Positions 15,202 to 51,679 of a stretch of 64,000 nucleotides of DNA are shown in pieces. The DNA is from Candidatus Tayloriibacteriota bacterium. Its GTDB lineage: Bacteria > Patescibacteriota > Minisyncoccia > Phycocordibacterales > PALSA-1337. A model generated the notes under the pieces. The model was not told where the DNA came from and did not search any database. It saw only the letters and a list, made by a program, of their open reading frames with translations. A program made the translations under genes and the position numbers. The number at the start of each line of letters is the position of its first letter. Positions within the stretch are counted from its first letter, which is position 1. Location: NCBI GenBank assembly GCA_028286665.1, contig JAQBRD010000031.1, positions 155 through 64,154 of the forward strand, given 5' to 3'.

Positions 15202-15426
15202 AGAGATATGCCAATAGTATACCAAGTATTCAGCCAAATAGGGCATGCGAAAAGGGCATATCTGAGGCCTCGGCAAGCCATTTGGACATGTATTGACATA
15301 TATGTTATAAATGGTATAATATACCACAGAGCAGTATCAGAAAAAACAATACAAACCCTACCGATGTGCCATGAATGAGGCCTTGTTTGGCACCATCTCA
15401 AGCACACAACGCAAGAAAACACGAAA

Positions 15427-16087: not shown

Positions 16088-16603
16088 GTGCTTGAGCGGT
16101 TTCACTTTTTCATAAGAGGCTGCTATATTGGATTCATGAATACGGCACCGCATCTATCGGCACGATCGACTTCGCTCGAACAGACATCGGAAATCGCTCG
16201 GCAATGGCTCGAGGCGATCGCTGCTTCGCCTGTCTCAGCTTCAGCGATAATCATCGGCCTCGATGGAAACCTCGGTTCGGGTAAGACGACTTTCACGCAG
16301 GCTGTCGCGCGGGAGCTCGGCGTCGCCGAACAGGTGACGAGCCCTACGTACGTGATCCAGAAATCCTATGCGATATTGAATCCGAGATTTTCCGCTCGTT
16401 TCAGCCGACTCATCCATATCGACGCGTATCGTCTCGAAGAGGCAAGCGAGCTCGAGGTTATCGGTTTCAGGAAGCTCGCGGCAGATCCGCGGAATCTCAT
16501 CCTCATCGAATGGCCTGAAAGGGTAGCAGCCCTCCTGCCTGCGGACATGCGCACGGTGCATTTCGCATTCGTCGATGAGACGACTCGAAGCATCGAATAT
16601 TAG
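16088..16603 (+). CDS. tsaE: tRNA threonylcarbamoyladenosine biosynthesis protein TsaE (YjeE-type P-loop)
   Basis: The protein has IGLDGNLGSGKTTFTQAVAREL, VTSPTYVIQKSY and IHIDAYRLE. The true start is probably the internal Met at about 16136. Confidence 0.8.
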   Translation: MLERFHFFIRGCYIGFMNTAPHLSARSTSLEQTSEIARQWLEAIAASPVSASAIIIGLDGNLGSGKTTFTQAVARELGVAEQVTSPTYVIQKSYAILNPRFSARFSRLIHIDAYRLEEASELEVIGFRKLAADPRNLILIEWPERVAALLPADMRTVHFAFVDETTRSIEY

Positions 16604-17733
16604 AAGGGAATCAGTGCGCCGTTCTTATACGTATCGAGCTCTACCGGCGTGGTGCTGACCTGGTGGGTCGGGAGGAACGTGATCGGACCATTTGCGGTCG
16701 AGAATGCATGAGACTCTATATATGAGGAGACATCGGCATTGTTTCCAGTCTTCGCGATTGCTTCGGCGAGGACATAGACGGCATCGTATGATCGATTCGC
16801 GGACTTCGCAGAATCGGCATTGAATCGCGCGTGGTATCGGGCGATGAATGCAGGCGTGCTCGCTTCCCAATTGAGGACGGTTATTCCTTCGAGGAGCGAT
16901 CGGTTGTCTGCGGTGAATCCGTCGTACGAGCCTGCGTAGGTGATCATCTTCGACGTGAAGCCGAGCTCCTTCGAGCGCATGAGGAAGTTCACGGTGTCTT
17001 TGTCGACCATGTCGAGAAAGACGGTGTCGACGTGCTGCTGCTTCAATTTGGCGATAGTGGTTTTGAAGTCATTGGTATCGAAAGCCGTGTACGCTTCGTC
17101 GATGATCACGCCCTTGCCGATCTCTTTCGTTACCTGCGCGATGGTCTTCGCGATCTCTGTGCCGAAGGTTGATTTGAAATGGACGACGGCGATCTTCTGC
17201 ACGTCGTCGCGCTTCAGATAGCTCGTGACGCCGCGGATGACTTTGCTGAAATCAGTGAGCATCGAGAAGCTATTCGCATTGAATTCGAAGCCGCCTTCGA
17301 TCCTGAACTGCGTCGGCGTGATCAGGGTTGTCTTGCTATTGAGGGCAAGCGGAAGCATCGGCTGGGCAACGAAATCCCAGAGGCCGCCGATGACGGCATT
17401 TGCGTTGTCGATGCTCGTGAGCTTCGTGAAAGCCGAAACCGCGGATTTCGGGTTCGTCTGATCGTCTTCATAGATGATCCTCACTTGCCGGCCGTCGATG
17501 CCGCCTGCTGCATTGATCTCTGATGCCGCGAGATCCATGCCGTTCTTGGCGTATTCGCCGAAGCTTGCCGCCGGACCTGTGAGCGAAATGACGGCGCCGA
17601 TGACGATCGGGTTTGCTGACGCATTGCTGCCGGAATCGGCAGGGGATACGCTCGGCTTATTGAGCGCGATGACTGCTCCCGCGATGAGCGCTGCGAGCAC
17701 TATAGCTGAAATGATTGCTGATGATTTTTTCAT
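16600..17733 (-). CDS. Membrane-anchored LivK-type (PBP type I) substrate-binding protein, copy 1
   Basis: There is an N-terminal anchor, followed by IVIGAVISLTGPAASFGEYAKNGMDLAASEINAAGGIDGRQVRIIYEDDQ, which is typical of the branched-chain amino-acid binding family. No permease or ATPase gene is adjacent. Confidence 0.8.
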   Translation of the reverse strand: MKKSSAIISAIVLAALIAGAVIALNKPSVSPADSGSNASANPIVIGAVISLTGPAASFGEYAKNGMDLAASEINAAGGIDGRQVRIIYEDDQTNPKSAVSAFTKLTSIDNANAVIGGLWDFVAQPMLPLALNSKTTLITPTQFRIEGGFEFNANSFSMLTDFSKVIRGVTSYLKRDDVQKIAVVHFKSTFGTEIAKTIAQVTKEIGKGVIIDEAYTAFDTNDFKTTIAKLKQQHVDTVFLDMVDKDTVNFLMRSKELGFTSKMITYAGSYDGFTADNRSLLEGITVLNWEASTPAFIARYHARFNADSAKSANRSYDAVYVLAEAIAKTGNNADVSSYIESHAFSTANGPITFLPTHQVSTTPVELDTYKNGALIPF

Positions 17734-30593: not shown

Positions 30594-31388
30594 GTGAGCA
30601 AAGGGTGGTATAAAAACGTCATGGAAAAAGAATTACTTGGGCATCTGATCGAGCTCGGACTTACGGAAAAAGAAGCCCGGCTCTATGTCTGGCTTGTGGA
30701 GCGCATCGAGACTACCGGCTATGAGGCGAGCATCGCGCTCAAGATCCCTCGAGGCACCGCGTACACCTTGCTCGAAGGTCTTGTTCGGAAAGAAATCGTC
30801 CGAGCAGGAACGCAGAACAAGAAACGCGTATACACTCCTGAATCGTTTTCAGTGTGGAAGAAAAGTCTTCAGGAAAAGATGAATATTGCTTCCTCGATGC
30901 TTCCGCTTCTCGAGAGCATGGTCTCAGTCAAAGGTCATAGCATCGATGTTCGTCTTTATAAGGGAATGTCTGGGGTGCAGAAGGCCTGGGATGAAGTCAT
31001 CGAGCATTTCGAAAAAAATCGCGTCGACACTTGCTTTGCAGTAAGTCATGGATCTCAGATCTACGCTGCGATGCCGAGGTATTTCAAGCGATGGATCGAG
31101 CGTCGGGTGGCGAACAAGACCGAGGCATATCTGATTTACCCGCTTGAAGACAAGAATGCGGTAGAGAACGGCTCCATTAGGGAACCGCTCGCTCAGTATA
31201 AATTCGCGCAGGGCGAGGCGCTCGCTTTCAGCGGAGACGTCACATGCGGAGGAAAGATCGCCGCTATCTTCTCATTCGACAATAAGCAGGAGCCGCACGC
31301 AGTGATCATCGAATCCGAAGACATTTCGAAGATCTTCACGCAATGGTTCAGAACCTTGTGGCACGTTCTACCGGGAAAGAATTTCTGA
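30594..31388 (+). CDS. TrmB-like HTH transcriptional regulator, paralog C
   Basis: The HTH reads LYVWLVERIETTGYEASIALKIPRGTAYTLLEGLV, and the C-terminal domain is shared (AVIIESEDISKIFTQWFRTLW). Confidence 0.7.
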   Translation: MSKGWYKNVMEKELLGHLIELGLTEKEARLYVWLVERIETTGYEASIALKIPRGTAYTLLEGLVRKEIVRAGTQNKKRVYTPESFSVWKKSLQEKMNIASSMLPLLESMVSVKGHSIDVRLYKGMSGVQKAWDEVIEHFEKNRVDTCFAVSHGSQIYAAMPRYFKRWIERRVANKTEAYLIYPLEDKNAVENGSIREPLAQYKFAQGEALAFSGDVTCGGKIAAIFSFDNKQEPHAVIIESEDISKIFTQWFRTLWHVLPGKNF

Positions 31389-32429: not shown

Positions 32430-33761
32430 TTGCTCATGAAAAAAATCCTCTCAGTTCTCCTGCTCGCAATATTCTTCACGGCTTCTCTCGCTGCCCTCGG
32501 GAATATTCCGGAGATCGTGGCGCTTGCTTCGGATTTCGGCATACGGCTCGTAGAGCAGAATGGATCGGAGCAGAGTCAGAACGATCAGCAGGCCGCGATA
32601 TTCTTCATTCCCGGCATCAGCGTCGGAGATCTTCAGGCAAAATACAAGAAAGCGCCTGAAACAGCGCAGAAAATAAATGTCCTCGTCGTGCCTGGCCACG
32701 AGCCGGATTACGGCGGCGCAGAATACCGCGATCTCAAGGAGCGAGATATGACCGTTGAGCTCGCAGGCTATCTCGCCGATCTTCTGAAAGCCAATCCGCG
32801 CTTCAGCGTCACCGTACCTCGTAGCCTCCATGCATGGAATGAACCGTTCGCTTCGTATTTCATCGATGCGTCTACATCGATCAGGGATTTCGCCGCACGT
32901 CAGAAATCTGAAATGGAGCGCCTCATGAAATCCGGCGAGATCAAGACTCAGGAGGCCGAGGTCTATCACAACGACGCTCCATCAGACGTCGCGCTCCGGA
33001 TCTACGGCATGAACAAATGGGCGAATGACAATCACGTCGATGTCGCGATCCATATCCATTTCAATGATTATCCCGAGCATCGTACGAAAAGCCCTGGGGA
33101 ATATGCCGGCTATGTCATCTATGTTCCTGAGCATCAGTATTCCAATAGCAGCACGACCAAAGCCATCGCCGACAGCATCAGCAAGCGCCTCTCGCGGTAT
33201 TATCCGACCAGCAATCATCCGCAGGAAGTCGACGGGGTAGTGGAAGATCAGGATCTCATCGCGGTCGGCTCGCATAACAGTTCAGATGCGCCGAGCATGC
33301 TCATCGAGTACGGCTATATCTATGAGCCGCAATTCCAGAATCCTGCCGCGCGCAAGCTCATCCTCGAGGATCTCGCATTTCAGACATATCTCGGCTTGCA
33401 GGATTTCTTCGGAAGCGGCAACGACGTGACGCTCAAGTATGACAACCTCATCCTTCCGCACGAGTGGACGAAGAATCTTTCGAAGACTATCTTCGATGTC
33501 GCGACGAAGCTCGGCGGAACGAACCGCGACGTCATCGTCAGCGATATTATCGCGCTTCAGACTGCGCTCATGAGAGAAGGAATGTATCCTCCGAAAGGCG
33601 AAACGAAATACGCATGTCCGAGAAGCGGTGCCTTCGGCCCATGCACCATGAAAGCACTCGCCGAATTCCAGAAGAAGTGGGGCATCCGGGGCGAAGCCGG
33701 CTCTGTCGGCGAAAAGACCCGCAAGAAGCTGAATGAGTTATACGAATCGCAGATGCTATAA
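32430..33761 (+). CDS. N-acetylmuramoyl-L-alanine amidase (Amidase_3-like) with C-terminal peptidoglycan-binding domain
   Basis: After a signal peptide, VLVVPGHEPDYGG...ERDMTVELAGYLADLL...VDVAIHIHFND has the amidase_3 pattern. The C-terminus (IIALQTALMREGMYPPKGETKY...ALAEFQKKWGIRGEAGSVGEKTRKKL) is a PG_binding_1-like domain. Confidence 0.65.
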   Translation: MLMKKILSVLLLAIFFTASLAALGNIPEIVALASDFGIRLVEQNGSEQSQNDQQAAIFFIPGISVGDLQAKYKKAPETAQKINVLVVPGHEPDYGGAEYRDLKERDMTVELAGYLADLLKANPRFSVTVPRSLHAWNEPFASYFIDASTSIRDFAARQKSEMERLMKSGEIKTQEAEVYHNDAPSDVALRIYGMNKWANDNHVDVAIHIHFNDYPEHRTKSPGEYAGYVIYVPEHQYSNSSTTKAIADSISKRLSRYYPTSNHPQEVDGVVEDQDLIAVGSHNSSDAPSMLIEYGYIYEPQFQNPAARKLILEDLAFQTYLGLQDFFGSGNDVTLKYDNLILPHEWTKNLSKTIFDVATKLGGTNRDVIVSDIIALQTALMREGMYPPKGETKYACPRSGAFGPCTMKALAEFQKKWGIRGEAGSVGEKTRKKLNELYESQML

Positions 33762-33778: not shown

Positions 33779-34543
33779 TTACTTTATTCCTTCCCAGATT
33801 CCCTTGAAGAGCTCGCGCATGTTGTGCGCGAGTTTTGCGTCATAGATCTGCACGAGATAGTGCGGTTTCTGATTGGTGACGATGAGCGTCAGGTAATCGC
33901 CGGTGACCCATGTGGTCGCAGTGAAATCGCCCTCGCCGTTCCAAAATTTGATGATGCGGTTGCTGTAGCCGCGCTTGCTCATGTCAGCTTCGAATTTCGA
34001 TTCGTTGCTGAGCAGACGGAGCGACAGCTTGCTCGGCGCACACTTCTTCCAATACCAATCGATCCATCCCTGGTAGCTTTTCACGAAGCTCGGATCCTGG
34101 AATCCCCACCAGATGCTGTCGTTCTTCAGGATGCTCTGACTCCATATCGGCGCCTGCTTCTCCATGAATGCCTCGATGTCCTCCTCATAGACGAATTGTA
34201 TCTTCGGAATGGAATAGCGCGTGTTTTTCGTAATGTCTTTCAATGCGTCGACAGCCTTGCCGATGAGCACCTTCTTGTTCTGAAGCTCGAGCTCTTCCTT
34301 CCGGATCATTTTCTTCAGATCCTCCGGCGGCAGGGCAGTGAGGTAGTTCTGCTTTCCGCCGACGTCTTCGACGATGATTCCTCGCGCGATGAGCTCCTTG
34401 GCGATGCTGTAGGTGGTCGAGCGGTTGATGCCGGTGAGGCGGGCGATGTGCGCCGGCGTCGCATGGCCGAGTTCAAGTACGGCGAGGTATGTTTTGACCT
34501 CCTTTTCTTTCAATCCGAGTTCTTGCAATATTTGTTCAATCAT
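33779..34543 (-). CDS. TrmB-like HTH transcriptional regulator, paralog D
   Basis: The HTH reads VKTYLAVLELGHATPAHIARLTGINRSTTYSIAKELI. The gene is divergent from the 34811 ORF and SBP copy 3. Confidence 0.7.
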   Translation of the reverse strand: MIEQILQELGLKEKEVKTYLAVLELGHATPAHIARLTGINRSTTYSIAKELIARGIIVEDVGGKQNYLTALPPEDLKKMIRKEELELQNKKVLIGKAVDALKDITKNTRYSIPKIQFVYEEDIEAFMEKQAPIWSQSILKNDSIWWGFQDPSFVKSYQGWIDWYWKKCAPSKLSLRLLSNESKFEADMSKRGYSNRIIKFWNGEGDFTATTWVTGDYLTLIVTNQKPHYLVQIYDAKLAHNMRELFKGIWEGIK

Positions 34544-35254: not shown

Positions 35255-36373
35255 ATGAATACCAAATCATTGCGGATTCTCTGTTCCATCCTTCTCCTAG
35301 TCATCATCGTCTTCGCTGTCTATAAGGGCAGCAAAGGAAATGAAGCATCTGGAGACATAAAGATCGGGGGTATCCTCATCATGAGCGGCGGCGGCGCAGC
35401 TTGGGGCGACGGATCGAAGAGCGGCATGCAGATGGCTGTCGAGGATATCAATAAGAATGGGGGAGTCAACGGAAGAAAGCTCAGCCTTGTTCTGGAAGAT
35501 GATGCGGGAGATCCGAAGAAGGCCATCAGCGCCTTCTCGAAGCTGACCAACTCGGACGGAGCAAAATTCATCATCGGTCCGAATTGGTCTAATTCCGGAC
35601 TCGCACTCGTTGATTTGGCGAAGAATAACAAGGCTGTCCTCATATCTCCGACACTCGGCGTGAAAGAATTCAATGAAGGAAGCGAAAACATATTTAACAC
35701 ATGGCCGCACGACTTCATCCTTTCGCGGAACATCGCTGACTATGTGTACAAGAAAGGATATCGGAATGTCGCGATATTCGGACTGCAGGATTCGTGGGTA
35801 TATGATCAGACGAAGAATTTCAAGGAAAGGTTCGAAGAGTTGGGCGGCAAGGTCGCGTTGGTCTATGAGCCACAGGCGACTGAAACAGATATGCGCGCAG
35901 GAATAACTAAGGTGAAGGCTGATAAATCGATCGATGCGATCATTATGACCGTCGCCGGCTATAGCCAATCGCATATCATGCCGCAGCAGATCCGAAGCCT
36001 TTCGGTAAACCTTCCGATCTTCTCGGTCAACATCGACAAGAAATCGATTCATGATTGCGGAGCAGCTTGTGAAGATATGATCTTCCTCAGTTATTTCACT
36101 CCGAATAAGCAGTTCGAAGCGAAATACAAGGCAAAATTCGGAGCCGAGGTGCTGATAGGCGCCGATTCATCTTATGACGCGGTGATGCTTCTTGCGAAAG
36201 CGATGACTGAAACGAAAAGCACTGATGTTGCGAGCGTCTCCAAGTATCTGAATGCGGTGAAAGAATATGATGGAATGTCGGGCAATCTGAAGTCGGATGG
36301 GAAGAGGGCTTTCATAAAGCCGTACACGGTGAATAGGGTGATGAAGGGGGAGCCTGTAGCCATAGTAGAATAA
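35255..36373 (+). CDS. LivK-type substrate-binding protein, copy 3
   Basis: After an N-terminal anchor comes IKIGGILIMSGGGAAWGDGSKSGMQMAVEDINKNGGVNGRKLSLVLEDDAGDPKKA. Confidence 0.8.
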   Translation: MNTKSLRILCSILLLVIIVFAVYKGSKGNEASGDIKIGGILIMSGGGAAWGDGSKSGMQMAVEDINKNGGVNGRKLSLVLEDDAGDPKKAISAFSKLTNSDGAKFIIGPNWSNSGLALVDLAKNNKAVLISPTLGVKEFNEGSENIFNTWPHDFILSRNIADYVYKKGYRNVAIFGLQDSWVYDQTKNFKERFEELGGKVALVYEPQATETDMRAGITKVKADKSIDAIIMTVAGYSQSHIMPQQIRSLSVNLPIFSVNIDKKSIHDCGAACEDMIFLSYFTPNKQFEAKYKAKFGAEVLIGADSSYDAVMLLAKAMTETKSTDVASVSKYLNAVKEYDGMSGNLKSDGKRAFIKPYTVNRVMKGEPVAIVE

Positions 36374-36383
36374 AGCGAAGAAC

Positions 36384-36418
36384 AAAACCGCCGCTCCTTT
36401 CGGAGCGGCGGTTTTGTT
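36384..36418 (+). terminator. Rho-independent terminator
   Basis: aaaaccgccgctcc-tttc-ggagcggcggtttt. Confidence 0.6.
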
Positions 36419-36488: not shown

Positions 36489-39400
36489 ATGGATATGAAA
36501 AAAATCGCTGTATTCCTCGGCATCCTGGCGGTCGCGTTCTCGGGTTTTTTTGCGGTGAAGCATGATGCGCAGGCTAGTTCGATGGGATATATAGAGTCGA
36601 GTTGCATCTATTACGGATATCAATCGAATGGCAATACTTTCTCTGAAACCCGTTTCTGGGATATGCCGATCACTGATGCGATGCCTGCTCCTCAGAATCT
36701 GGGAACTCTCATTGCGACATATGCAGCGTCGAAGCCTGCAGGCGACAGGTCAGAGAGTCGTCAAAATAATTCTACGTCTAAATTGGCTTACCCGGTAGGC
36801 TGCCAAAAATATTCCGGTTTTTTCACCTATAAGGTTATGAGCATGGTCCTCAGCACCGATGACTCGGTTCGGTTTTCAGACGGCAATACGGTGCGAGACT
36901 ATGCGGGACCGGTGAGCGCGGTGGATGAAGTAATGACCAGCCATGCGGACAAGCTTACTTTCAACGTGATACCAAAATTCCGCGGACCCGCGACTACTCT
37001 TGCGGCAAGCGTCTCAGGAAATCAGGTGACTCTTGCTTGGAGCAATCCGTTTCCGGCGAAATCTCTTGCCATGACTAGCTATGTGGCTGCGGTTGAGCGG
37101 GCACGTGCAGGATCGAATTCATTCGTGCAGGTGAGCCCCGCTCTCGATCAAAGCTTCAGCATGCCGTATTCGAATATCGGAAACTATACGAAATTCTTCA
37201 CGCCGCAATTGACCTACACGGATACCTCGGCGCCTGAAGGAGATTTTGATTATCGAATCAGGATAGACATGTCTTTTCAGACAGCCACTGGCGAATTCTA
37301 TGTAAATGGCGGAAGCAGCCAAGATGGTTATTATGCAAAGACATATCATTATTCGACCGTCGCGAGCGCAAAGTTGCCACCGAAAGCTCCGAAGCTCGCT
37401 TCGATCAGTCCAAATAGCTTCAGTGTCGATGCGACAGAAACGCCGCCGGTCACTATCGCTGGAACTGGCTTCAAGCCGACCGGCAATTCAATCAAGTTCG
37501 TTCATGCGACCATCGCAGGCAAGGTATACCGCATCGATGACGTATCGAGCGCTGGAACCTCTCTCGCTTTCGATCTGCCCGCAGGCATGACGCAAGGAGC
37601 ATATAACGTAACGACGAAAGTCACTGATAGCCCTTGGAGCAATGAGCTCACCGTCAGGGTTCTTCCGAAGAGTCCTGCGGCACTTACAGCGAAATTCGTA
37701 TTTACTGATACTAAAAAAGGAATCGATCTCGATTGGAGCGGAGGCGCAGCGAATTCGATTGTTTCTGGGTATGAGGTGGAAAGGGCTTCTGGGTATAGGG
37801 CAGACTCTGCAGAGTATAAGAAGATATCGGAAACTACCGGAAAGACAGCCTTCGATGCAAATTTGAATTTGCTTACTACGAAGGATATTTTTTACCGGAT
37901 CAAGACTAAATTCACTGATGGAACTTCCGTTACCTCTAATGTAGCTTCGGTTCCCGCGTGTCAGAAGATTGCGGGAAATGGTCCGGTCAAAGTCGTGTTC
38001 ATGAGAGATAAGAAAATATCCGAAGATCTCAAAGTAGATGCATTTTACGGTGTAGTCTTGAATACAATAAAACTCGGCTTCAGAAGGACAGATCCCTTCA
38101 AGGCGTATGCTAACAAATTCTCCTTCTATATCGATCTTGAAGAATATGATACTTATGATGATTGGTCGATGCCTGAAGGCACGGCAAAATCTCAATCTGA
38201 GTGCGGAAAGGATGCAAAGATTTATATTTATTACAGCACAAAAGTAGGAAAAACAGCTTACTCATACTTCAATAGCGGAGAGGTGTACATGATGCCTTTT
38301 GATTTATTGCCTACAGCAGGCTTCGATAATCTTATCGATTATGAGAAAAAAATACGTCTGCTCGATAGCAGCGCATCTTCTTCACTTATTCTTGCGCAGG
38401 CTACGCTTCACGAAGTCGGGCATGCTTTCGGAAGATTGCGAGACGAATATATCAGAAGTACTGAGCCTGAACCGTCTTCATTGAGCGTTTTCGATTCCGT
38501 AAATTGCAGCACTAAACCATCGTCTGATTTCCGAAGCTCTATCAATAATCAGATATACGGTTCATTGACAAGCGTCGGCTGCAGCTATCTCAAAGCATAC
38601 ACCGGTCATGCAGGCGATACCTCCAATACATTCTACAAGCCGAGTAAGGCAAGCTTGATGGATACGATACATGCAACCAAGAATCCAGACGGTACGTACA
38701 TAACGTATTCGCGAATATCATCTCCTCGATTCAATGTTATCTCTTGCGGGTATCTCATTTCGGCAATTCTCGGAGAGCCTACGGATAAGGCACATGCGCA
38801 AACGCATTGGCAAGAATGCGCGACGGAACTCGATACTGAGACGGATACTCCGCCGCTTGCCGGCAAGCCGGGGACCTTGAAATCATCAAGCTCCATCGTA
38901 TATCCAGGCAATGCGATAAAATCATCAGCAAACTCAGTTTCAAAAATGAATTCCGTGCCAACCTCGTCAGATCGAAACAGCTTGATCATCAGCGGTTCTG
39001 GCTTCACTCCGGAGGGGAACAATATTCGCTTTGCCAATACTGCAACAAAGAAGGTTTTCGAGATAAATGAGGTTCCAAGCATCGACGGAAAAACTCTGCA
39101 GCTAGATATTCCAAACGATACCGATCCAGGAACATACAACGTAAGGGTGGGGGCATTCAACAGTCCTTGGAGTGACGCGATATCGCTTCAAGTGCTCGAT
39201 TTCCCGAAGATTGCTTCATTTAGTCCTGCATCAATCACGCTTAGCGAGCTCTCGAAGCCGATCCTCATCAAAGGATCTAATTTTATCGTCGGACATACGG
39301 TGACGGTTTCATTCGCGCCGAAGAGCGGAGGATCGGCTATCATAAGCACCGCGAAAGTTGCAACGAGTACGAAAATTTCCGTTATACCGCCGGCCTCGCT

Positions 39401-42104
39401 TGCTGTTGGAACATATCAGGTCTTTGTTTCGGATTCGACCGATGGCGCGAAAGTCGAAACCAATAAGCTCGACCTCGGCGTGTATGAAGCTCGAGTGGCG
39501 GTTCCTACGATTTCTGCAGCTTCGCCAGCGAAAGCTGGTCCGAGCGCGAGCGTCGCCCTGAACGGTACTCATTTCACCGCAGATTCGATCGTGAGGATCT
39601 GGAACGATTCTCAGGAATATTCCGTGACGCCGACGATCGCATCGAGCACGAGACTGACATTCATCGTTCCTGCGAATGCGGTTCTCGGAACATACTCGGT
39701 CAAGGTCCTTGCGGGATCAGTCGGCGAATCAACCTCGCTTCCATTCCAGATTCTTTCCATTCCGAATATCACAAGCATCACTCCGAGATCTCTCGCCAAC
39801 CCTAATGTGACAGGGAAGCCGATCGTTCTTGCAGGCGTCCGCTTCATCGTCGGCCATATGGTAGATGTCGTATTCGAGCCAAAAAGCGGAGCCGCGTCAA
39901 CTCCCGTTTCAGTCAGAGTCGCAAGTTCGACGCGTATCACGCTCAGTGCTCCGGCCTTATCCGTTGGCATCTATGACGTATCTGTCGTCGATGGTTCTAT
40001 CGAAACAAACAAAGTGGCCTTCACAGTATCGAACGGCATTCCGGCGATCACTGCAATGAACCCTCCTGCGGAAGGTCCTGGCGGAACGATAACCGTCTCA
40101 GGCGCAAGATTCGTCGATGGGATCGTCCTGCGGATACTCCCGGGAACGACGGTCATCCCGGCCGCTTCGACCACGGTTGCTGCTGACGGCAGAACACTCA
40201 CATTCATCGTGCCATCCGGACTCGCGGCAGGCAGTTATGCATTGAGAGCTGCAGTTCCTGGCGTGGGAGCAAGCAATGATTTCGTATTCACGATTCTTTC
40301 AGGTCCCGTTCTGACCTCGGCTCAAGCGTCGGGCGGCGATCAGTATTCGATCAGCGGTTCCAATTTCGTAGTTGGCAAGACCGCAACGGTCAATTTCGCT
40401 CCTCGAGCCGGAGGCAGCAGCGTGCTGGCTTCTGCAGTGATCGCATCATCGACGCAGGTAAGCGTGAACGCTGTTCTTCCGGAAGGGAATTACGATGTCT
40501 CGATGACTGTCGATTCCGTGACCACGAACAGAGTCATATTCTCGACTAACCCTCCGATACTGACATCCTTTACAACGGATGCGCCGGTACCAGATCAGCC
40601 ATATTGCGACTCGCCGAGTCCGGTGACCTTCACTGTTACGGGCAGGAATTTCCTCGCGTCATCCGTTCTCAAAATAATCGGAGCCGGCGGAAAGGTGTAT
40701 CCATTGAATAACAATCAGGTTTCTGCTGATAAGGCATCTATCTCCGCTCAGTTCAATTACCGATGCGCGACAGCTTCTGACAATGGAGCGGGAACTATTT
40801 CGCAGGGGGCTTATTCGCTCGTCGTCGATGGCCTGAGCCCGATCGTGAGCAATAGCCTTCTCTTCAACATACCTTACCCGATGCGGATCCTTCCGCTCGG
40901 CGTGACGGACGTCATCCAATCGGGTCAGATCGTCCTCGTCGGCTCCATGCAGATATTCCATGTGCAACGAGGCAGCGACTTCACTCAGACTTGGGACATT
41001 TTGGGTTCCGGCGGGTCGCTGTCCTATACTGCGATACTCAGCCGCTTCGATCCGTTCATCGATGTCGCCAACTATACGAATAACACGATCGCATACCAAT
41101 ATAGGAACAGCATCAACGCTTCCGGAGGGGTTGTCGGGTCCGCTTTCAATGTGACTATTCCTACAGCTTCCATTCCTGTAGGAACGTATACATTGAAAGC
41201 AGGATTGAATTATCCAGGAAATCCACCTCGATCGTTGCCGCTCATACCGACTGCGAGCGTGGGAGATGCTAACCTTCCATGGTACGACGCCTCGTATTCG
41301 CCGGGATATCGATATACAGTCGGATTCTTGATGGTTGAGGATGCTGCCGCAACGGCGGCTTCAGTCAAGAAAACGCAGAGCGCAGCATCGACGCCTCTTA
41401 CGCTGAGCGCCCTTATCAAAAATGCCGCATCGACATCGACATCAGCTGCGAAGATCGTCGCTCCCGTTTCAGCTCCTGTCTCTGTTCCTGTTCCGAAACC
41501 TGCTACATCAACTCCGGCAATTTCAATTGCAGCTACCACAAGCTCAACAATTTCGATCCCGTCAGCTCCGACCCCAGTTCCAGTAGCGCCGATTCCAGTT
41601 CCTGCGCCGACACCCGTACCAGCTCCGGTTCCTGCGGTCATGCCGATCACTATCCTCCCATGGTCTGCACAAGCAACCATCCAGGCAGGGAAGTCTCTCC
41701 CATACACGCTTAATTGGAGCGGCGGTCCTACGGAGAAGACTTGGAAATCATTCATCCATGTCGTGAAGGGCGATGGCACGACTGTCGCGGCAGATGCATA
41801 CTATCCTTCTACTCCGACGACCCAGTGGTCTGGAAGTCAGAATTTCAGTAGCTCAGTGGCGATACCTCCGACGCTTGCTCCAGGTACGTATCGGGTCATG
41901 GCCGGTCTCTGGATCCCTGTGGGAACTACGCCGTCAGCTGATTTGAAACTCGTCCCAGGATCCGGCGTGACGCTCGATCCGGCATATAGCGCACATTATC
42001 GATACCAAGTCGGGACGATCACGGTGACGTCGCCGTCATCAGCGCTCGGAGCGATGATCAGCGCGCTCGGCGATGACTTCATCTCGCGTTTCTTCAGCAG
42101 GTAG
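36489..42104 (+). CDS. Giant modular surface protein (1871 aa): signal peptide, Fn3-like modules, about 9 IPT/TIG-like Ig repeats, zincin metallopeptidase-like domain (HEVGH...DEY, M64-like), Pro/Thr/Ala-rich linker, C-terminal domain
   Basis: The signal peptide is MDMKKIAVFLGILAVAFSGFFAV. Repeats of about 85-90 aa of the form P.I.S..P........I.G..F..G..V.F.P..G.......V.S.T.I....P..L..G.Y.V.V recur about nine times. LAQATLHEVGHAFGRLRDEYI matches the HExxH(x7)DEY pattern of family M64. A PVPAPTPVPAPVP linker follows. Confidence 0.75.
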   Translation: MDMKKIAVFLGILAVAFSGFFAVKHDAQASSMGYIESSCIYYGYQSNGNTFSETRFWDMPITDAMPAPQNLGTLIATYAASKPAGDRSESRQNNSTSKLAYPVGCQKYSGFFTYKVMSMVLSTDDSVRFSDGNTVRDYAGPVSAVDEVMTSHADKLTFNVIPKFRGPATTLAASVSGNQVTLAWSNPFPAKSLAMTSYVAAVERARAGSNSFVQVSPALDQSFSMPYSNIGNYTKFFTPQLTYTDTSAPEGDFDYRIRIDMSFQTATGEFYVNGGSSQDGYYAKTYHYSTVASAKLPPKAPKLASISPNSFSVDATETPPVTIAGTGFKPTGNSIKFVHATIAGKVYRIDDVSSAGTSLAFDLPAGMTQGAYNVTTKVTDSPWSNELTVRVLPKSPAALTAKFVFTDTKKGIDLDWSGGAANSIVSGYEVERASGYRADSAEYKKISETTGKTAFDANLNLLTTKDIFYRIKTKFTDGTSVTSNVASVPACQKIAGNGPVKVVFMRDKKISEDLKVDAFYGVVLNTIKLGFRRTDPFKAYANKFSFYIDLEEYDTYDDWSMPEGTAKSQSECGKDAKIYIYYSTKVGKTAYSYFNSGEVYMMPFDLLPTAGFDNLIDYEKKIRLLDSSASSSLILAQATLHEVGHAFGRLRDEYIRSTEPEPSSLSVFDSVNCSTKPSSDFRSSINNQIYGSLTSVGCSYLKAYTGHAGDTSNTFYKPSKASLMDTIHATKNPDGTYITYSRISSPRFNVISCGYLISAILGEPTDKAHAQTHWQECATELDTETDTPPLAGKPGTLKSSSSIVYPGNAIKSSANSVSKMNSVPTSSDRNSLIISGSGFTPEGNNIRFANTATKKVFEINEVPSIDGKTLQLDIPNDTDPGTYNVRVGAFNSPWSDAISLQVLDFPKIASFSPASITLSELSKPILIKGSNFIVGHTVTVSFAPKSGGSAIISTAKVATSTKISVIPPASLAVGTYQVFVSDSTDGAKVETNKLDLGVYEARVAVPTISAASPAKAGPSASVALNGTHFTADSIVRIWNDSQEYSVTPTIASSTRLTFIVPANAVLGTYSVKVLAGSVGESTSLPFQILSIPNITSITPRSLANPNVTGKPIVLAGVRFIVGHMVDVVFEPKSGAASTPVSVRVASSTRITLSAPALSVGIYDVSVVDGSIETNKVAFTVSNGIPAITAMNPPAEGPGGTITVSGARFVDGIVLRILPGTTVIPAASTTVAADGRTLTFIVPSGLAAGSYALRAAVPGVGASNDFVFTILSGPVLTSAQASGGDQYSISGSNFVVGKTATVNFAPRAGGSSVLASAVIASSTQVSVNAVLPEGNYDVSMTVDSVTTNRVIFSTNPPILTSFTTDAPVPDQPYCDSPSPVTFTVTGRNFLASSVLKIIGAGGKVYPLNNNQVSADKASISAQFNYRCATASDNGAGTISQGAYSLVVDGLSPIVSNSLLFNIPYPMRILPLGVTDVIQSGQIVLVGSMQIFHVQRGSDFTQTWDILGSGGSLSYTAILSRFDPFIDVANYTNNTIAYQYRNSINASGGVVGSAFNVTIPTASIPVGTYTLKAGLNYPGNPPRSLPLIPTASVGDANLPWYDASYSPGYRYTVGFLMVEDAAATAASVKKTQSAASTPLTLSALIKNAASTSTSAAKIVAPVSAPVSVPVPKPATSTPAISIAATTSSTISIPSAPTPVPVAPIPVPAPTPVPAPVPAVMPITILPWSAQATIQAGKSLPYTLNWSGGPTEKTWKSFIHVVKGDGTTVAADAYYPSTPTTQWSGSQNFSSSVAIPPTLAPGTYRVMAGLWIPVGTTPSADLKLVPGSGVTLDPAYSAHYRYQVGTITVTSPSSALGAMISALGDDFISRFFSR

Positions 42105-42128
42105 GTGACCCGTCGCTTGATCTATAGG

Positions 42129-42158
42129 AAAACGCCAGGCTGATCAGCCTGGCGTTTT
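42129..42158. terminator. Bidirectional terminator between the giant gene and murE
   Basis: aaaacgccaggc-tgatca-gcctggcgtttt. Confidence 0.6.
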
Positions 42159-42176
42159 CCTATTCTTCAATTTCCT

Positions 42177-50527: not shown

Positions 50528-51679
50528 TTGTTCTATAAGAATAAAGAACATATGAAAAAATACATCATTTCTGGCCTAGTTATATTGGTTCTTTCGGGGA
50601 TTTTGTTTGGAATTACGAATCAGCGTGGTTCATCTTCAGCAGTTACTATTGGCTTTCTCGGATCTTTGACCGGTGTAGATCCTAATTACGGAGAGGCGAT
50701 GAAAGGCGGAGTTTCGATTGCGGTGGATGAAATCAATGCTGAAGGTGGAATTGCCGGCAAGAAATTAGAGGTAATTTATGAAGATGGCAAATGCATCGAT
50801 ACCAAGTCAGCGGTGAGCGCTGCCCAGAAACTAATCACAATTGATAAGGTCAATATTATCCTTGGCGGGGGTTGCAGCAACGAGGCTTTGTCTATCGTAC
50901 ATCTCCTCGAAGAATCAAACACACTTCTGCTTTCATCTGGGGCGAGCAGTCCCGCGCTATCAGGCTTGAGCAAGAATGTCTTCCGAAATGCCCCAAGCGA
51001 TGCGCAGACCGGAGAAAAGATCGCGGCATATATGTTTTCAAAGCATTTTCGAAAGGTCGCAATCGTGTCTGATCAAACTGATTATTCAAAAGGCTTCAGG
51101 GATTCGTTTTTGAAATCCTTCGCAAATCTTGGAGGGTTTGTTGTCGAAGATATATCCGTTTCGCCAAAAGGTTCGGATTACCGGACCGATCTGGTTAAGC
51201 TAAAAGGAAAGGAAATCGATGCCATATTCATCAATCCCAACGTACCCGTCAGTGCTGGCATTATCGCAAGACAGGTGAGGGAGCTCGGGATGAATCAGCA
51301 GCTGTTTTTCGCCTATCACGCAACTCCTGATCTGGTCAGAACCGGTGGGGATGCCGTCAACGGTGCGGTAATAATCAATGTCCCGACTCCAGAGAATGAT
51401 GCTGCAAAAAGAATCCTCAAGCGATTCGAAGAAAAATACGGCAAGAGCACAGTCTATCCATACAACACGCTTGCCGCATACGATGCTGCAATGCTCATAG
51501 CTCAAGGGATAAAGAAAGCTGGCAGCAAAACGGAAGATGTTCGGTCGTATTTGCACGAATTGAAAAATTTCACCGGAGCGCTTGGCTCATATCACTTCGA
51601 TGAGAGAGGGGATATCCAAGACCTTCAGTATCGATTTGAAAGGGTTGAGGGCGGAAAGTTTGTCGATATTGTGGAATAA
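50528..51679 (+). CDS. LivK-type substrate-binding protein, copy 4
   Basis: After an N-terminal anchor comes VTIGFLGSLTGVDPNYGEAMKGGVSIAVDEINAEGGIAGKKLEVIYEDGKCIDTKSA. Confidence 0.8.
   Translation: MFYKNKEHMKKYIISGLVILVLSGILFGITNQRGSSSAVTIGFLGSLTGVDPNYGEAMKGGVSIAVDEINAEGGIAGKKLEVIYEDGKCIDTKSAVSAAQKLITIDKVNIILGGGCSNEALSIVHLLEESNTLLLSSGASSPALSGLSKNVFRNAPSDAQTGEKIAAYMFSKHFRKVAIVSDQTDYSKGFRDSFLKSFANLGGFVVEDISVSPKGSDYRTDLVKLKGKEIDAIFINPNVPVSAGIIARQVRELGMNQQLFFAYHATPDLVRTGGDAVNGAVIINVPTPENDAAKRILKRFEEKYGKSTVYPYNTLAAYDAAMLIAQGIKKAGSKTEDVRSYLHELKNFTGALGSYHFDERGDIQDLQYRFERVEGGKFVDIVE

What the first reader, a model, noticed from the sequence alone, without database searches (positions are those of the whole stretch)
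36489..42104. 1871-aa modular surface protein with an M64-like HExxH...DEY metallopeptidase core between IPT/TIG repeat arrays
After a signal peptide come Fn3-like modules. They are followed by at least nine IPT/TIG-like Ig repeats of about 85-90 aa with a recurring G.xF..G.....F.P..G pattern.

A central region carries LAQATLHEVGHAFGRLRDEYI. That is HExxH followed 7 residues later by DEY, the motif arrangement of IgA-specific metallopeptidase family M64.

A Pro/Val/Ala/Thr linker and a distinct C-terminal domain complete the protein. The layout resembles a surface adhesin-protease. This would suit a cell that lives attached to a host or partner, though that is speculation.

The gene uses 5.6 kb of what appears to be a compact genome.
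Basis: partly seen in the sequence, partly recalled or inferred. Interest (0 to 1): 0.65.

Follow-up and report, generated by a model that had tools for sequence, protein, structure and literature searches.

The report
Stalked M64-like zinc protease, Taylorbacteria surface
This 1871-residue gene from an ultrasmall "Candidatus Taylorbacteria" bacterium encodes an exported protein with a divergent M64-type (igalysin-like) zinc protease domain on a long stalk of antibody-like repeats; databases call it only "hypothetical", and it belongs to an unannotated protease clade found so far mainly in ultrasmall bacteria and archaea.

Summary

- **Protease domain (aa 488-790).** It carries HEVGHAFGRLRDEY. 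Alone it scores only 12.5-12.7 bits against Pfam Peptidase_M64 (cutoff 26).
- **Family.** An exhaustive search found 415 relatives at 50% clustering. A 56-sequence profile of them hits the solved M64 structures (3P1V E=1.9e-8; 4DF9; IgA protease 9EKK), about a million-fold better than any other metzincin.
- **Structure.** An AlphaFold model (pLDDT 85) has all 17 top Foldseek PDB hits in M64. The HExxH lies in a long helix, not a beta-sandwich.
- **Conservation.** H641, E642, H645, D652, E653 and Y654 are invariant; M724 (candidate Met-turn) is nearly so.
- **Repeats.** There are eight TIG repeats (one before, seven after the protease), not nine or more. One Fn3 domain (aa 396-487) is confirmed by profile.
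- **C-terminus.** Two copies of an unassigned ~130-155-aa domain flank a P/V/A/T/S linker.
- **Tail.** The protein ends in an amphipathic tail motif shared by about a third of relatives, with no known model.
- **Source.** A Candidatus Taylorbacteria MAG (MDB5259708.1, "hypothetical protein").

Verdict: a divergent variant of a known protease family in a typical surface-protein architecture. Substrate and anchoring remain inferred.

The parts
36381..36418 (.). 17-bp-stem GC-rich hairpin between the upstream Peripla_BP_6 gene and this gene. It looks like a terminator in both orientations, so the big gene probably starts its own transcript.
   Evidence: terminator scan; sequence
36489..36575 (+). 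Signal-peptide-like N-terminus (aa 1-29; MDMKK + hydrophobic core + AQA|SS). NCBI's model starts two codons later, at M3.
   Evidence: only TM-like segment, KD 2.2; NCBI model 1869 aa. The cleavage site is by inspection; no predictor was run.
36576..36983 (+). N-terminal region aa 30-165, unassigned fold, two Cys (39, 105). It begins GYIESSC, like P0044 (GFIEYSC).
   Evidence: no Pfam hit and no phmmer hit among relatives. The resemblance to P0044's N-terminus is by eye only.
36984..37385 (+). Fn3-like module with an insertion (aa 166-299). Not verified as Fn3.
   Evidence: homologous to P0044 aa 195-317, iE 2.5e-13; no Pfam fn3 hit
37386..37664 (+). TIG repeat 1 (aa 300-392)
   Evidence: own-repeat HMM, 93.6 bits
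37674..37949 (+). Fn3 domain immediately upstream of the catalytic domain (aa 396-487). Homologous modules hold the same position in P0044, P0062, P0040 and P0041.
   Evidence: (profile vs titin Fn3 E=2.6e-9)
37950..38858 (+). M64/igalysin-like metzincin catalytic domain (aa 488-790), with six Cys: 491, 572, 673, 698, 753, 777
38409..38450 (+). Zinc-binding motif HEVGHAFGRLRDEY (aa 641-654). H641, H645 and D652 are the predicted Zn ligands and E642 the general base. E653 and Y654 are invariant.
   Evidence: invariance in 56 sequences; HExxH(6)[DE]EY in 134 of 151 relatives; motif definition from PMC12237041 and PMC12402451
38652..38663 (+). Candidate Met-turn S722-L-M724-D725 (family consensus SIM; Met at least 90% conserved)
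   Evidence: M240 of the alignment query = M724. Assigned by analogy with CIM608R of IgAse. The model's geometry was not inspected.
38928..40874 (+). Seven tandem TIG repeats (aa 814-1462). The last carries a Cys-containing insertion (C1373, C1426).
40875..41339 (+). C-terminal domain copy A (aa 1463-1617), weakly related to copy B
   Evidence: iE 0.003-0.015 between the copies; no Pfam match
41340..41636 (+). A/P/S/T/V-rich low-complexity linker (aa 1618-1716)
   Evidence: A23 P19 S15 T13 V11 of 99 residues
41637..42038 (+). C-terminal domain copy B (aa 1717-1850). The same ~130-aa domain occurs three times in P0044 and once each in P0076, P0043 and P0046. Fold unassigned.
   Evidence: best PDB E=0.066; no hits in the word-indexed search
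42039..42101 (+). C-terminal amphipathic tail SSALGAMISALGDDFISRFFSR (aa 1850-1871), a weak copy of a motif shared by ~50 of 151 relatives. Candidate anchor or sorting element.
   Evidence: E=0.0049; hydrophobic moment 0.35 = 95th percentile of this protein's 18-mers; no NCBIfam model
42124..42163 (.). 18-bp-stem hairpin 20 nt after the stop codon, terminator-like; shared with the convergent Mur-ligase gene

Best explanation
The gene encodes a Sec-exported, multi-domain zinc endopeptidase of a Candidatus Taylorbacteria (Patescibacteria) cell.

Catalytic domain (aa 488-790). It is a metzincin whose nearest known relatives are the M64/igalysin peptidases.
- By homology, H641, H645 and D652 hold the catalytic zinc.
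- E642 activates the water.
- M724 forms the Met-turn under the metal site.
- An Fn3 domain abuts the catalytic domain on its N-terminal side. Accessory beta-domains abut the M64 domain in the solved enzymes too.

The rest of the protein. It most likely forms a long stalk made of:
- seven TIG repeats;
- two unassigned domains of ~130-155 aa;
- a P/V/A/T/S linker.

The stalk would hold the protease tens of nanometres from the cell. The short amphipathic C-terminal tail would be the attachment or sorting element.

Likely job. Either cutting proteins outside the cell to supply peptides to an amino-acid-auxotrophic organism, or cutting the envelope proteins of a partner cell.

What is shown and what is inferred.
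- Shown: the ORF, domain boundaries, homology, the predicted fold and residue conservation.
- Inferred: export, zinc ligation, activity, stalk function, C-terminal anchoring and substrate.
For: ORF and signal-like N-terminus.

Family:
- An exhaustive HMMER search with a 3-sequence profile found 415 cluster representatives at E<=1e-3 and 100 at E<=1e-30.
- HExxH(6)[DE]EY is present in 134 of the 151 proteins held (the 150 listed representatives plus P0002).
- H641, E642, H645, D652, E653 and Y654 are invariant in the 56-sequence alignment. M724 and four of the Cys (491, 572, 698, 753/673) are at least 90% conserved.

Relationship to M64:
- Profile against PDB sequences: 3P1V E=1.9e-8, 4DF9 4.3e-7, IgA protease 9EKK 8.3e-6. 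Other metzincins score E>=0.025.
- Pfam M64 is the only family matched by most relatives: 50 of 56 at E<=1, 8 of 56 at E<=1e-5, best 1.7e-8.
- The AlphaFold2 model has pLDDT 85 and pTM 0.87. It has a beta-sheet plus a long helix carrying HEVGH that ends at G648.
- Foldseek against PDB: the top 17 hits are all M64 (E 1.8e-6 to 5e-4, TMq 0.39-0.54), followed by adamalysins.
- The Asp lies at H+11, the M64-specific spacing described in PMC12237041 and PMC12402451.

Accessory domains:
- TIG.
- Fn3 next to the catalytic domain, conserved in several relatives.
- 86 of 151 relatives carry at least one TIG-like repeat.

Anchoring:
- There is no LPXTG-type motif and no C-terminal TM segment.
- The C-terminal tail motif is shared and position-specific.

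Organism. Related loci are mostly Patescibacteria, plus two DPANN-type archaea.
Against: - The protein alone does not reach Pfam's M64 threshold (12.5-12.7 bits against 26).
- Sequence similarity to solved M64 enzymes covers only the upper subdomain up to the zinc motif (profile positions 20-166). Structural similarity is moderate (TMq ~0.5, 12-15% identity).
- The Gly of the M64 motif is at H+7 here, not H+8.
- Model coordinates could not be inspected. Zinc-site geometry, the Met-turn and the Cys pairing are therefore unverified.
- There is no activity, expression or localisation data.
- The tail in this protein is a weak match (E=0.0049). A half-seed HMM recovered only 6 of 25 held-out tails.
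- No conserved gene neighbourhood points to a substrate.
Confidence: 0.72

Rival explanations
1. It is mainly a fibrillar adhesin or structural surface protein. The metzincin-like domain would be a non-catalytic binding module (a pseudo-peptidase).
For: Ig-like repeats and unassigned beta-domains make up most of the protein. 12 of the 151 relatives held lack HExxH altogether, so inactive versions do exist in the clade.
Against: This protein keeps every residue expected for catalysis: H641, E642, H645, D652, and M724. These positions are invariant or nearly so across the 56 aligned relatives. That pattern indicates selection for catalysis.
Confidence: 0.1
2. It is a freely secreted protease, not tethered to the cell. 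The C-terminal tail would be a secretion, docking or protein-protein interaction signal rather than a membrane or envelope anchor.
For: There is no TM helix, LPXTG or lipobox at the C-terminus. The tail is too polar to span a membrane (mean KD below 1.1). No model of a known sorting signal matches it.
Against: The tail sits at the extreme C-terminus after S/T/P-rich linkers in many large exported proteins, including some without the protease domain. This is the layout of wall-spanning linker plus anchor in monoderm surface proteins (my own knowledge). Its hydrophobic moment is high: 0.35-0.57, against a protein-wide mean of 0.19.
Confidence: 0.25
3. The catalytic domain belongs to a different Asp-ligand or related metzincin family (snapalysin M7, adamalysin/reprolysin M12B, myroilysin-like) rather than to the M64 lineage.
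For: Weak profile hits to snapalysin (1C7K, E=0.026), myroilysin (0.025) and snake-venom adamalysins (0.03-0.24). Adamalysins follow the M64 entries in Foldseek. A few relatives hit the Reprolysin_2-5 Pfam models weakly.
Against: M64 hits are about 10^6-fold more significant. They fill the first 17 Foldseek ranks. The DEY triplet and the H+11 Asp spacing match M64 (HEFGHSFGGLADEY in 3P1V), not the H+10 spacing of other metzincins.
Confidence: 0.07
4. It is a true IgA-specific protease like the T. ramosa enzyme.
For: Only the family resemblance.
Against: - Identity is 11-12% and TMq 0.39-0.40 to the IgA protease structures.
- The host is an uncultured Taylorbacteria MAG, and the available relatives are from MAGs of Patescibacteria and archaea.
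- Even within M64, BF3526 does not cleave intact IgA (PMC12402451).
Confidence: 0.01

Closest known systems
BF3526 (PDB 4DF9/9QDI) and BACOVA_00663 (PDB 3P1V), Bacteroides M64 peptidases (cluster CL-I of PMC12402451)
   Same: - Best sequence-profile matches (E=1.9e-8 and 4.3e-7).
- Best fold matches (E~2e-6, TMq 0.50-0.54).
- HExxH...DEY with Asp at H+11.
- A beta-sandwich domain directly N-terminal to the catalytic domain.
   Different: - Only 12-15% identity.
- Sequence similarity stops at the zinc motif. The lower subdomain has its own conserved signature: NC, YG, GC, YRPS..SIM, FNVISCGY, W.EC.
- The Cys spacing differs from the E323/C398/C409/C412 structural zinc site of BF3526.
- Those enzymes are ~400-aa two-domain lipoproteins. 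This is an 1871-aa protein with eight TIG repeats.
Thomasclavelia ramosa IgA protease (IgAse/ThomasA; PDB 9EKK, 9QDH, 9I4Z, 9QA6)
   Same: - M64/igalysin catalytic domain in a large multi-domain, signal-peptide-bearing surface protein.
- An Fn3-type domain packs next to the catalytic domain.
- All-beta domains sit between the protease and a C-terminal attachment region.
- Significant profile hit (E=8.3e-6) and fold hits (E=4e-5 to 5e-4).
   Different: - IgAse has the motif HExxHxxxGxxD with Gly at H+8. Here Gly is at H+7.
- IgAse is sortase-anchored (SPQTG + TM). Here there is no such signal.
- IgAse has a lectin-like N-terminal domain and zinc-binding beta-domains, not TIG repeats.
- IgA specificity cannot be transferred.
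Adamalysin/reprolysin metzincins (M12B; e.g. PDB 1IAG, ADAM8 4DD8)
   Same: General metzincin upper-subdomain architecture and Met-turn logic. They are the next-best fold matches after M64.
   Different: The third ligand is His at H+10, and there is no DEY. Profile E-values are about 10^6 times weaker.
C-terminal amphipathic-helix membrane anchors such as E. coli PBP5/PBP6 (from my own knowledge, not tested here)
   Same: A short amphipathic segment at the extreme C-terminus of an exported enzyme that has no TM helix.
   Different: No sequence relationship was tested. Membrane binding of the tail here is purely hypothetical.

Membership tests
Peptidase M64 / igalysin (Pfam PF09471, MEROPS M64) | Score at or above Pfam's gathering threshold (26 bits) for PF09471 | tested here: not met
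   12.5-12.7 bits, E=0.07-0.08, over only 20 residues around the motif. Among 56 relatives, 8 match at E<=1e-5 and 50 at E<=1. The clade sits on the fringe of the model.
Peptidase M64 / igalysin (Pfam PF09471, MEROPS M64) | Third zinc ligand is Asp, placed 11 residues after the first His (one residue further than in other metzincins) | tested here: met
   H641...D652 is H+11. D is invariant in 56 sequences. The spacing of 6 between HExxH and [DE]EY holds in all 132 motifs scored. Definition from PMC12237041.
Peptidase M64 / igalysin (Pfam PF09471, MEROPS M64) | Gly at H+8 (HExxHxxxGxxD) | tested here: not met
   Here H+8 is R649 and the Gly is at H+7 (G648). In the clade, H+7 is G (62) or A (58) and H+8 is G in 54 of 132 motifs. 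Gly occurs at +7 or +8 in 105 of 132. 3P1V has GG at +7/+8.
Peptidase M64 / igalysin (Pfam PF09471, MEROPS M64) | Closest solved structures by sequence profile and by fold are M64 enzymes | tested here: met
   M64 entries rank first in both searches; TMq is only ~0.5.
Peptidase M64 / igalysin (Pfam PF09471, MEROPS M64) | Second, structural zinc site in the catalytic domain (Glu/Asp + three Cys) | tested here: inconclusive
   E653 of DEY is invariant. Cys673, 698 and 753 are at least 90% conserved. Their spacing differs from BF3526.
Peptidase M64 / igalysin (Pfam PF09471, MEROPS M64) | Zinc-dependent endopeptidase activity | not testable with these tools
   Needs recombinant enzyme.
Metzincin clan | HExxH in an active-site helix ending at a small residue/Gly; a downstream conserved Met (Met-turn); a mixed beta-sheet plus backing helix in the upper subdomain | tested here: met
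   - The model has strands at 7-12, 16-23, 60-69, 94-98, 106-109 and 114-117.
- It has helices at 32-47 and at 145-164 (ending at G648), plus C-terminal helices.
- M724 is at least 90% conserved.
- Foldseek hits are exclusively metzincins.
- The Met-turn geometry itself was not inspected.
IPT/TIG domain (Pfam PF01833) | Score above the gathering threshold; tandem ~85-90-aa units | tested here: met
   66.6 bits against 20.9, 5 stretches. NCBIfam CoaZ_rpt_PGGG 59.7 bits against 30. Eight units by own-repeat HMM.
Fibronectin type III (Pfam PF00041) | Significant match to Fn3 models or structures | tested here: inconclusive
   - Aa 396-487: no Pfam hit alone. A 7-sequence profile hits titin Fn3 at E=2.6e-9 and 5.7e-5, and 3 of 7 homologs hit PF00041.
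- Aa 166-299: no test beyond one homolog.
Sortase (LPXTG-type) or other catalogued C-terminal sorting signals | Signature motif followed by a TM helix and a basic tail at the C-terminus | tested here: not met
   No such motif near the C-terminus and no C-terminal hydrophobic segment. No NCBIfam sorting-domain hit for the protein or for ten tails.

The most novel reading that the evidence does not exclude
The protein represents a clade of igalysin-like metzincins that is largely specific to ultrasmall episymbionts (Patescibacteria and DPANN archaea).
- The clade is missed by current annotation and by the published 15-cluster map of M64.
- It would be displayed on Ig-like stalks through a previously undescribed C-terminal amphipathic anchoring or sorting motif, which unrelated surface proteins of these organisms also use.
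- Its members would cut host-cell envelope proteins as part of attachment or feeding.
Probability: 0.15. Interest if true: 0.7.

Novelty: new variant of a known kind. Interest (0 to 1): 0.42.

Why it matters
Patescibacteria lack most biosynthetic pathways and live on or near other cells. How they obtain amino acids and engage partners is largely unknown.

- **A missed protease clade.** At least 415 sequence clusters carry this domain. Public records label the few named members examined 'hypothetical', 'IPT/TIG domain-containing' or 'MBG domain-containing'. The clade offers concrete, expressible candidates for extracellular proteolysis in these organisms.
- **A wider M64 lineage.** It extends M64/igalysin beyond the gut-associated and other phyla surveyed in 2025.
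- **A possible display signal.** If the shared C-terminal tail is general, it would help predict the surface proteome of organisms without a known display signal.

None of this changes a major concept. The architecture (protease plus Ig-like stalk) is a familiar one.

Tried and rejected
**Direct searches with this protein were uninformative.**
- The single protein, or its central 296 aa, against PDB sequences gave nothing relevant.
- Pfam on the single domain gave only a 20-residue M64 match at E=0.07. Homolog profiles were needed.

**Word-indexed homolog searches were nearly blind to this family.**
- 2 hits with the domain.
- 0 hits with C-terminal domain B.
- 3 hits with the 56-sequence profile.
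- The exhaustive representative search supplied the family instead.

**Structure work.**
- AlphaFold2 with a 3-sequence alignment was useless (pLDDT 31.7). It was repeated with 56 sequences.
- Both structure-prediction jobs went on the catalytic domain. The N-terminal region, the TIG stalk and the C-terminal domains have no model.

**Locus and context searches.**
The 3-sequence alignment worked but uses patterns biased towards close relatives, so the taxonomic spread is a lower bound and may be skewed.
- The look-up of encoding contigs found no record for P0003.
- Synteny: none of the six flanking genes of the window recurs next to family members in the 14 loci. The idea of a functional link to the upstream LivJ-like binding protein was dropped, also because the window holds three such genes.

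**Other negative results.**
- DNA-level tandem repeats were absent. The repeats are old and diverged.
- A literature search linking M64 or igalysin with Patescibacteria found nothing. A search on C-terminal anchors in Patescibacteria also found nothing.
Full report
**1. The observation**

- The window holds one uninterrupted ORF at 36489..42104 on the + strand, encoding 1871 aa.
- Strong terminator-like hairpins flank it: 36381-36418 (17-bp stem) and 42124-42163 (18-bp stem). It probably forms its own transcription unit.
- The N-terminus (MDMKK, a hydrophobic core, then AQA|SS) is the only TM-like segment in the protein. I read it as a Sec signal peptide by inspection; no predictor was run.
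- The quoted peptide LAQATLHEVGHAFGRLRDEYI is present, with HExxH at aa 641-645 and DEY at aa 652-654.
- The protein has only 16 His and 42 Glu, so 0.003 chance HExxH motifs are expected.

**2. The repeats**

- Pfam IPT/TIG matches at E=2e-18: 66.6 bits against a cutoff of 20.9, in five stretches.
- NCBIfam's TIG-like 'choice-of-anchor Z' repeat model matches at 59.7 bits against a cutoff of 30.
- An HMM built from the protein's own repeats finds eight units.
  - One lies before the protease, at aa 300-392.
  - Seven in tandem lie after it, spanning aa 814-1462.
- There is no DNA-level tandem repeat, so the units are old and diverged.

**3. Other modules**

- **Aa 396-487, directly upstream of the protease, is an Fn3 domain.**
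  - The segment alone does not hit Pfam fn3.
  - A profile with six homologous segments hits titin Fn3 domains at E=2.6e-9 and 5.7e-5.
  - Three of the seven segments hit PF00041.
  - Homologous modules occupy the same position in P0044, P0062, P0040 and P0041.
- **Aa 166-299** has one clear homolog (P0044, iE 2.5e-13) and looks Fn3-like by eye. This is unverified.
- **Aa 30-165** is unassigned.
- **After the TIG array come two weakly related domains**, at aa 1463-1617 and aa 1717-1850.
  - They are separated by a 99-residue A/P/S/T/V-rich linker.
  - The second domain recurs three times in P0044 and once each in P0076, P0043 and P0046.
  - It has no significant Pfam or PDB sequence match.

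**4. The protease domain**

*Alone it is uninformative.* Aa 488-790 gives only a 20-residue, 12.5-12.7-bit match to Pfam Peptidase_M64 (E=0.07-0.08, cutoff 26). It gives nothing relevant against PDB sequences. The word-indexed homolog search found two relatives.

*The family.*
- A 3-sequence profile searched exhaustively against 1.84 billion cluster representatives found 415 proteins at E<=1e-3, 269 at E<=1e-10 and 100 at E<=1e-30.
- Nearly all are large multi-domain proteins (median length 910 aa).
- Of the 151 sequences held, 134 carry HExxH(6)[DE]EY.

*Conservation in a 56-sequence alignment (A2).*
- H641, E642, H645, D652, E653 and Y654 are invariant.
- C673, Y690, C753 and G754 are also invariant.
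- M724 and Cys 491, 572 and 698 are at least 90% conserved.

*Relationship to M64.*

| Test | Result |
|---|---|
| A2 profile vs PDB sequences, M64 entries | 3P1V E=1.9e-8; 4DF9 4.3e-7; T. ramosa IgA protease 9EKK 8.3e-6, 9QDH 1e-5, 9I4Z 3.5e-4 |
| A2 profile vs PDB sequences, best non-M64 metzincins | myroilysin, snapalysin and adamalysins at E>=0.025 |
| Pfam M64 among the 56 relatives | 50 match at E<=1; 8 at E<=1e-5 |
| AlphaFold2 with A2 | pLDDT 85.0, pTM 0.87 |
| Foldseek vs PDB | first 17 hits all M64 (E=1.8e-6 to 5.3e-4; TMq 0.50-0.54 for the Bacteroides enzymes, ~0.40 for the IgA protease), then adamalysins |

- The model has an alpha/beta upper subdomain, and HEVGH lies in a 20-residue helix that ends exactly at G648.

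**5. How close it is to M64**

Two 2025 papers define the igalysin/M64 signature as HExxHxxxGxxD. The third ligand is Asp, placed one residue further along than in other metzincins. The signature also includes a Met-turn and a second structural zinc bound by Cys plus an acidic residue (PMC12237041; PMC12402451).

| Feature | Here | Status |
|---|---|---|
| Asp spacing (H+11) and DEY triplet | as in 3P1V's HEFGHSFGGLADEY | matches |
| Gly position | H+7, not H+8 (clade: G or A at +7; G at +8 in 54 of 132) | differs |
| Sequence similarity | stops at the zinc motif (profile positions 20-166) | partial |
| Lower subdomain | own signature: NC...YG...GC...YRPS..SIM...FNVISCGY...W.EC | differs |
| Identity to solved M64 enzymes | 11-15%, TMq ~0.5 | low |

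The published similarity network of M64 lists 15 clusters from many phyla but mentions neither Patescibacteria nor archaea. I therefore call this a divergent M64-like variant on the fringe of the Pfam model, not a documented member. IgA specificity must not be transferred. Even BF3526, a bona fide M64 enzyme, does not cut intact IgA.

**6. Source and distribution**

- The exact protein is in the collection. Its 2-residue-shorter form is NCBI MDB5259708.1, 'hypothetical protein JWO73_916 [Candidatus Taylorbacteria bacterium]', on a 64,590-bp contig.
- The window's other genes are bacterial housekeeping genes:
  - a class A PBP, Mur ligase and RuvA;
  - PolA and TyrRS/TrpRS;
  - a PilB-type ATPase;
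  - 8 scattered tRNAs.
- A pattern-seeded scan of one genome per GTDB species found 14 loci encoding relatives.

| Label of the genome | Loci |
|---|---|
| Taylorbacteria, Paceibacterota, Saccharibacteria or 'Patescibacteria group' | 7 |
| 'Uncultured bacterium' bins | 4 |
| 'Bacteroidota' (a 6.6-kb contig) | 1 |
| Archaeal MAGs (one of them Woesearchaeota) | 2 |

- That scan is biased towards close relatives, so the distribution is indicative only.
- Paralogs are often adjacent, and one protein has two catalytic domains (L006).
- 86 of the 151 relatives carry at least one TIG-like repeat, but none of the others has more than four.
- The few named relatives examined are labelled only 'IPT/TIG domain-containing' or 'MBG domain-containing'.

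**7. The C-terminus**

- There is no LPXTG-like signal, lipobox or C-terminal TM helix.
- The protein ends in SSALGAMISALGDDFISRFFSR.
- About 50 of the 151 relatives end in a clearer version, after S/T/P-rich linkers. The consensus is roughly [ST]A[SN][VI][WF][DN][AS][IL]xx[WF][FL]xx[LF][FW]G[WRK].
- It is amphipathic: hydrophobic moment 0.35-0.57, against a protein-wide mean of 0.19.
- In the fetched loci it also ends large exported proteins that lack the protease domain. Clearest case: L006 7957-10128. Weaker matches: L002 3684-6608, L002 1-2052 and L001 6920-8353.
- No NCBIfam model matches it.
- Statistical support is modest because the motif is short.
  - A half-seed HMM recovered 6 of 25 held-out tails plus this protein.
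  - It gave 8 internal hits in 147,600 residues, roughly 100-fold enrichment at C-termini.
- I treat it as a candidate anchoring or sorting element. This step of the model is inferred.

**8. Mechanism proposed**

1. The protein is exported through Sec.
2. The catalytic zinc is bound by H641, H645 and D652, with E642 as general base and M724 as the Met-turn.
3. The adjacent Fn3 domain and the N-terminal modules may shape or gate substrate access. The NTD of BF3526 restricts access, and the Fn3-type wrapping domain of IgAse is essential.
4. The seven TIG repeats, the two C-terminal domains and the proline-rich linker form an extended stalk. It would be tens of nanometres long if each Ig-like unit spans ~3.5-4 nm; this is my estimate.
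5. The C-terminal tail holds the protein at the envelope.

The substrate is unknown. Plausible roles are peptide supply for an auxotrophic cell or cutting a partner's surface proteins.

The upstream LivJ-like binding-protein gene is not evidence for either role. It is separated by a hairpin, the window has three such genes, and no neighbour is conserved in the related loci.

**9. Verdict**

The finding is a divergent variant of a known protease family in a familiar surface-protein architecture. It has two mildly novel aspects: an unannotated clade concentrated in ultrasmall prokaryotes, and an uncatalogued C-terminal tail motif. Interest is moderate.

Noticed in passing
window 42039-42101; P0049, P0052, P0047, P0045, P0008 and others; L006 7957-10128, L002 3684-6608, L002 1-2052, L001 6920-8353: A ~20-aa amphipathic motif (roughly TASVWDAIxxWFxxLFGW) sits at the extreme C-terminus of about a third of the family, after S/T/P-rich linkers. 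It also ends several large exported proteins that lack the protease domain. No NCBIfam model matches it. It may be an undescribed anchoring or sorting signal of Patescibacteria.
   Followed up: partly
L004 9474-12623: This 1050-aa TIG-containing neighbour of two family members has a tail-like segment (FLAATSGLWGTIKGLFSS) just after its signal peptide, as well as an amphipathic C-terminal end. The half-seed tail HMM also gave 8 internal hits in family proteins (for example P0043 557-572 and P0074 809-833). The motif may therefore not be strictly C-terminal.
   Followed up: no
L006 439-3975, 3979-7608 and 7957-10128; L004 5221-6903 and 8149-9441; L014 2987-4993 and 5296-7023: Family members occur as adjacent paralogs. 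One protein (L006 3979-7608, 1210 aa) carries two complete M64-like catalytic domains.
   Followed up: partly
P0054, P0073, P0075, P0086, P0099, P0100, P0102, P0117 and others: Twelve of the 151 family proteins held lack any HExxH in the matched domain; eight of them align over nearly the full domain, the other four only over part of it. Five more keep HExxH but have lost the DEY. These may be pseudo-peptidases, or some (P0081, P0083, P0095, P0135 match only part of the profile) may be fragmentary matches.
   Followed up: no
P0002, P0005, P0017, P0065, P0066, P0092, P0096: A short-form subgroup (about 450-730 aa) has the catalytic domain near the N-terminus. It has a different C-terminal domain ending in a Cys-rich ...C(F)FNC motif instead of the amphipathic tail.
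   Followed up: no
window 16600-17733 (-), 35255-36373 (+), 50528-51679 (+): Three separate Peripla_BP_6 (LivJ-like, amino-acid-binding type) genes lie in 64 kb. No adjacent permease or ATPase genes were seen next to the one examined. One lies immediately upstream of the protease gene but is separated from it by a strong hairpin.
   Followed up: partly
window 36381-36418 and 42124-42163: Two unusually long perfect hairpins (17- and 18-bp stems, GC-rich, with T-runs on both sides) bracket the gene. They look like bidirectional terminators.
   Followed up: partly
window 36489 vs 36495: The NCBI protein model (1869 aa) starts at the second in-frame ATG (M3). The ORF's first ATG gives 1871 aa, and that form is also on record from a Logan assembly. 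A GGATGG lies just upstream of the second ATG.
   Followed up: partly
window 9031-11049 (-), 13507-15327 (-), 30594-31385 (+) and 33779-34543 (-): Other envelope and regulation genes in the window: a 672-aa CAP-domain (cysteine-rich secretory protein family) protein, a PilB/T2SSE-type ATPase, and two TrmB-family regulators flanking an Amidase_3 + PG_binding_1 cell-wall hydrolase (32430-33758).
   Followed up: no
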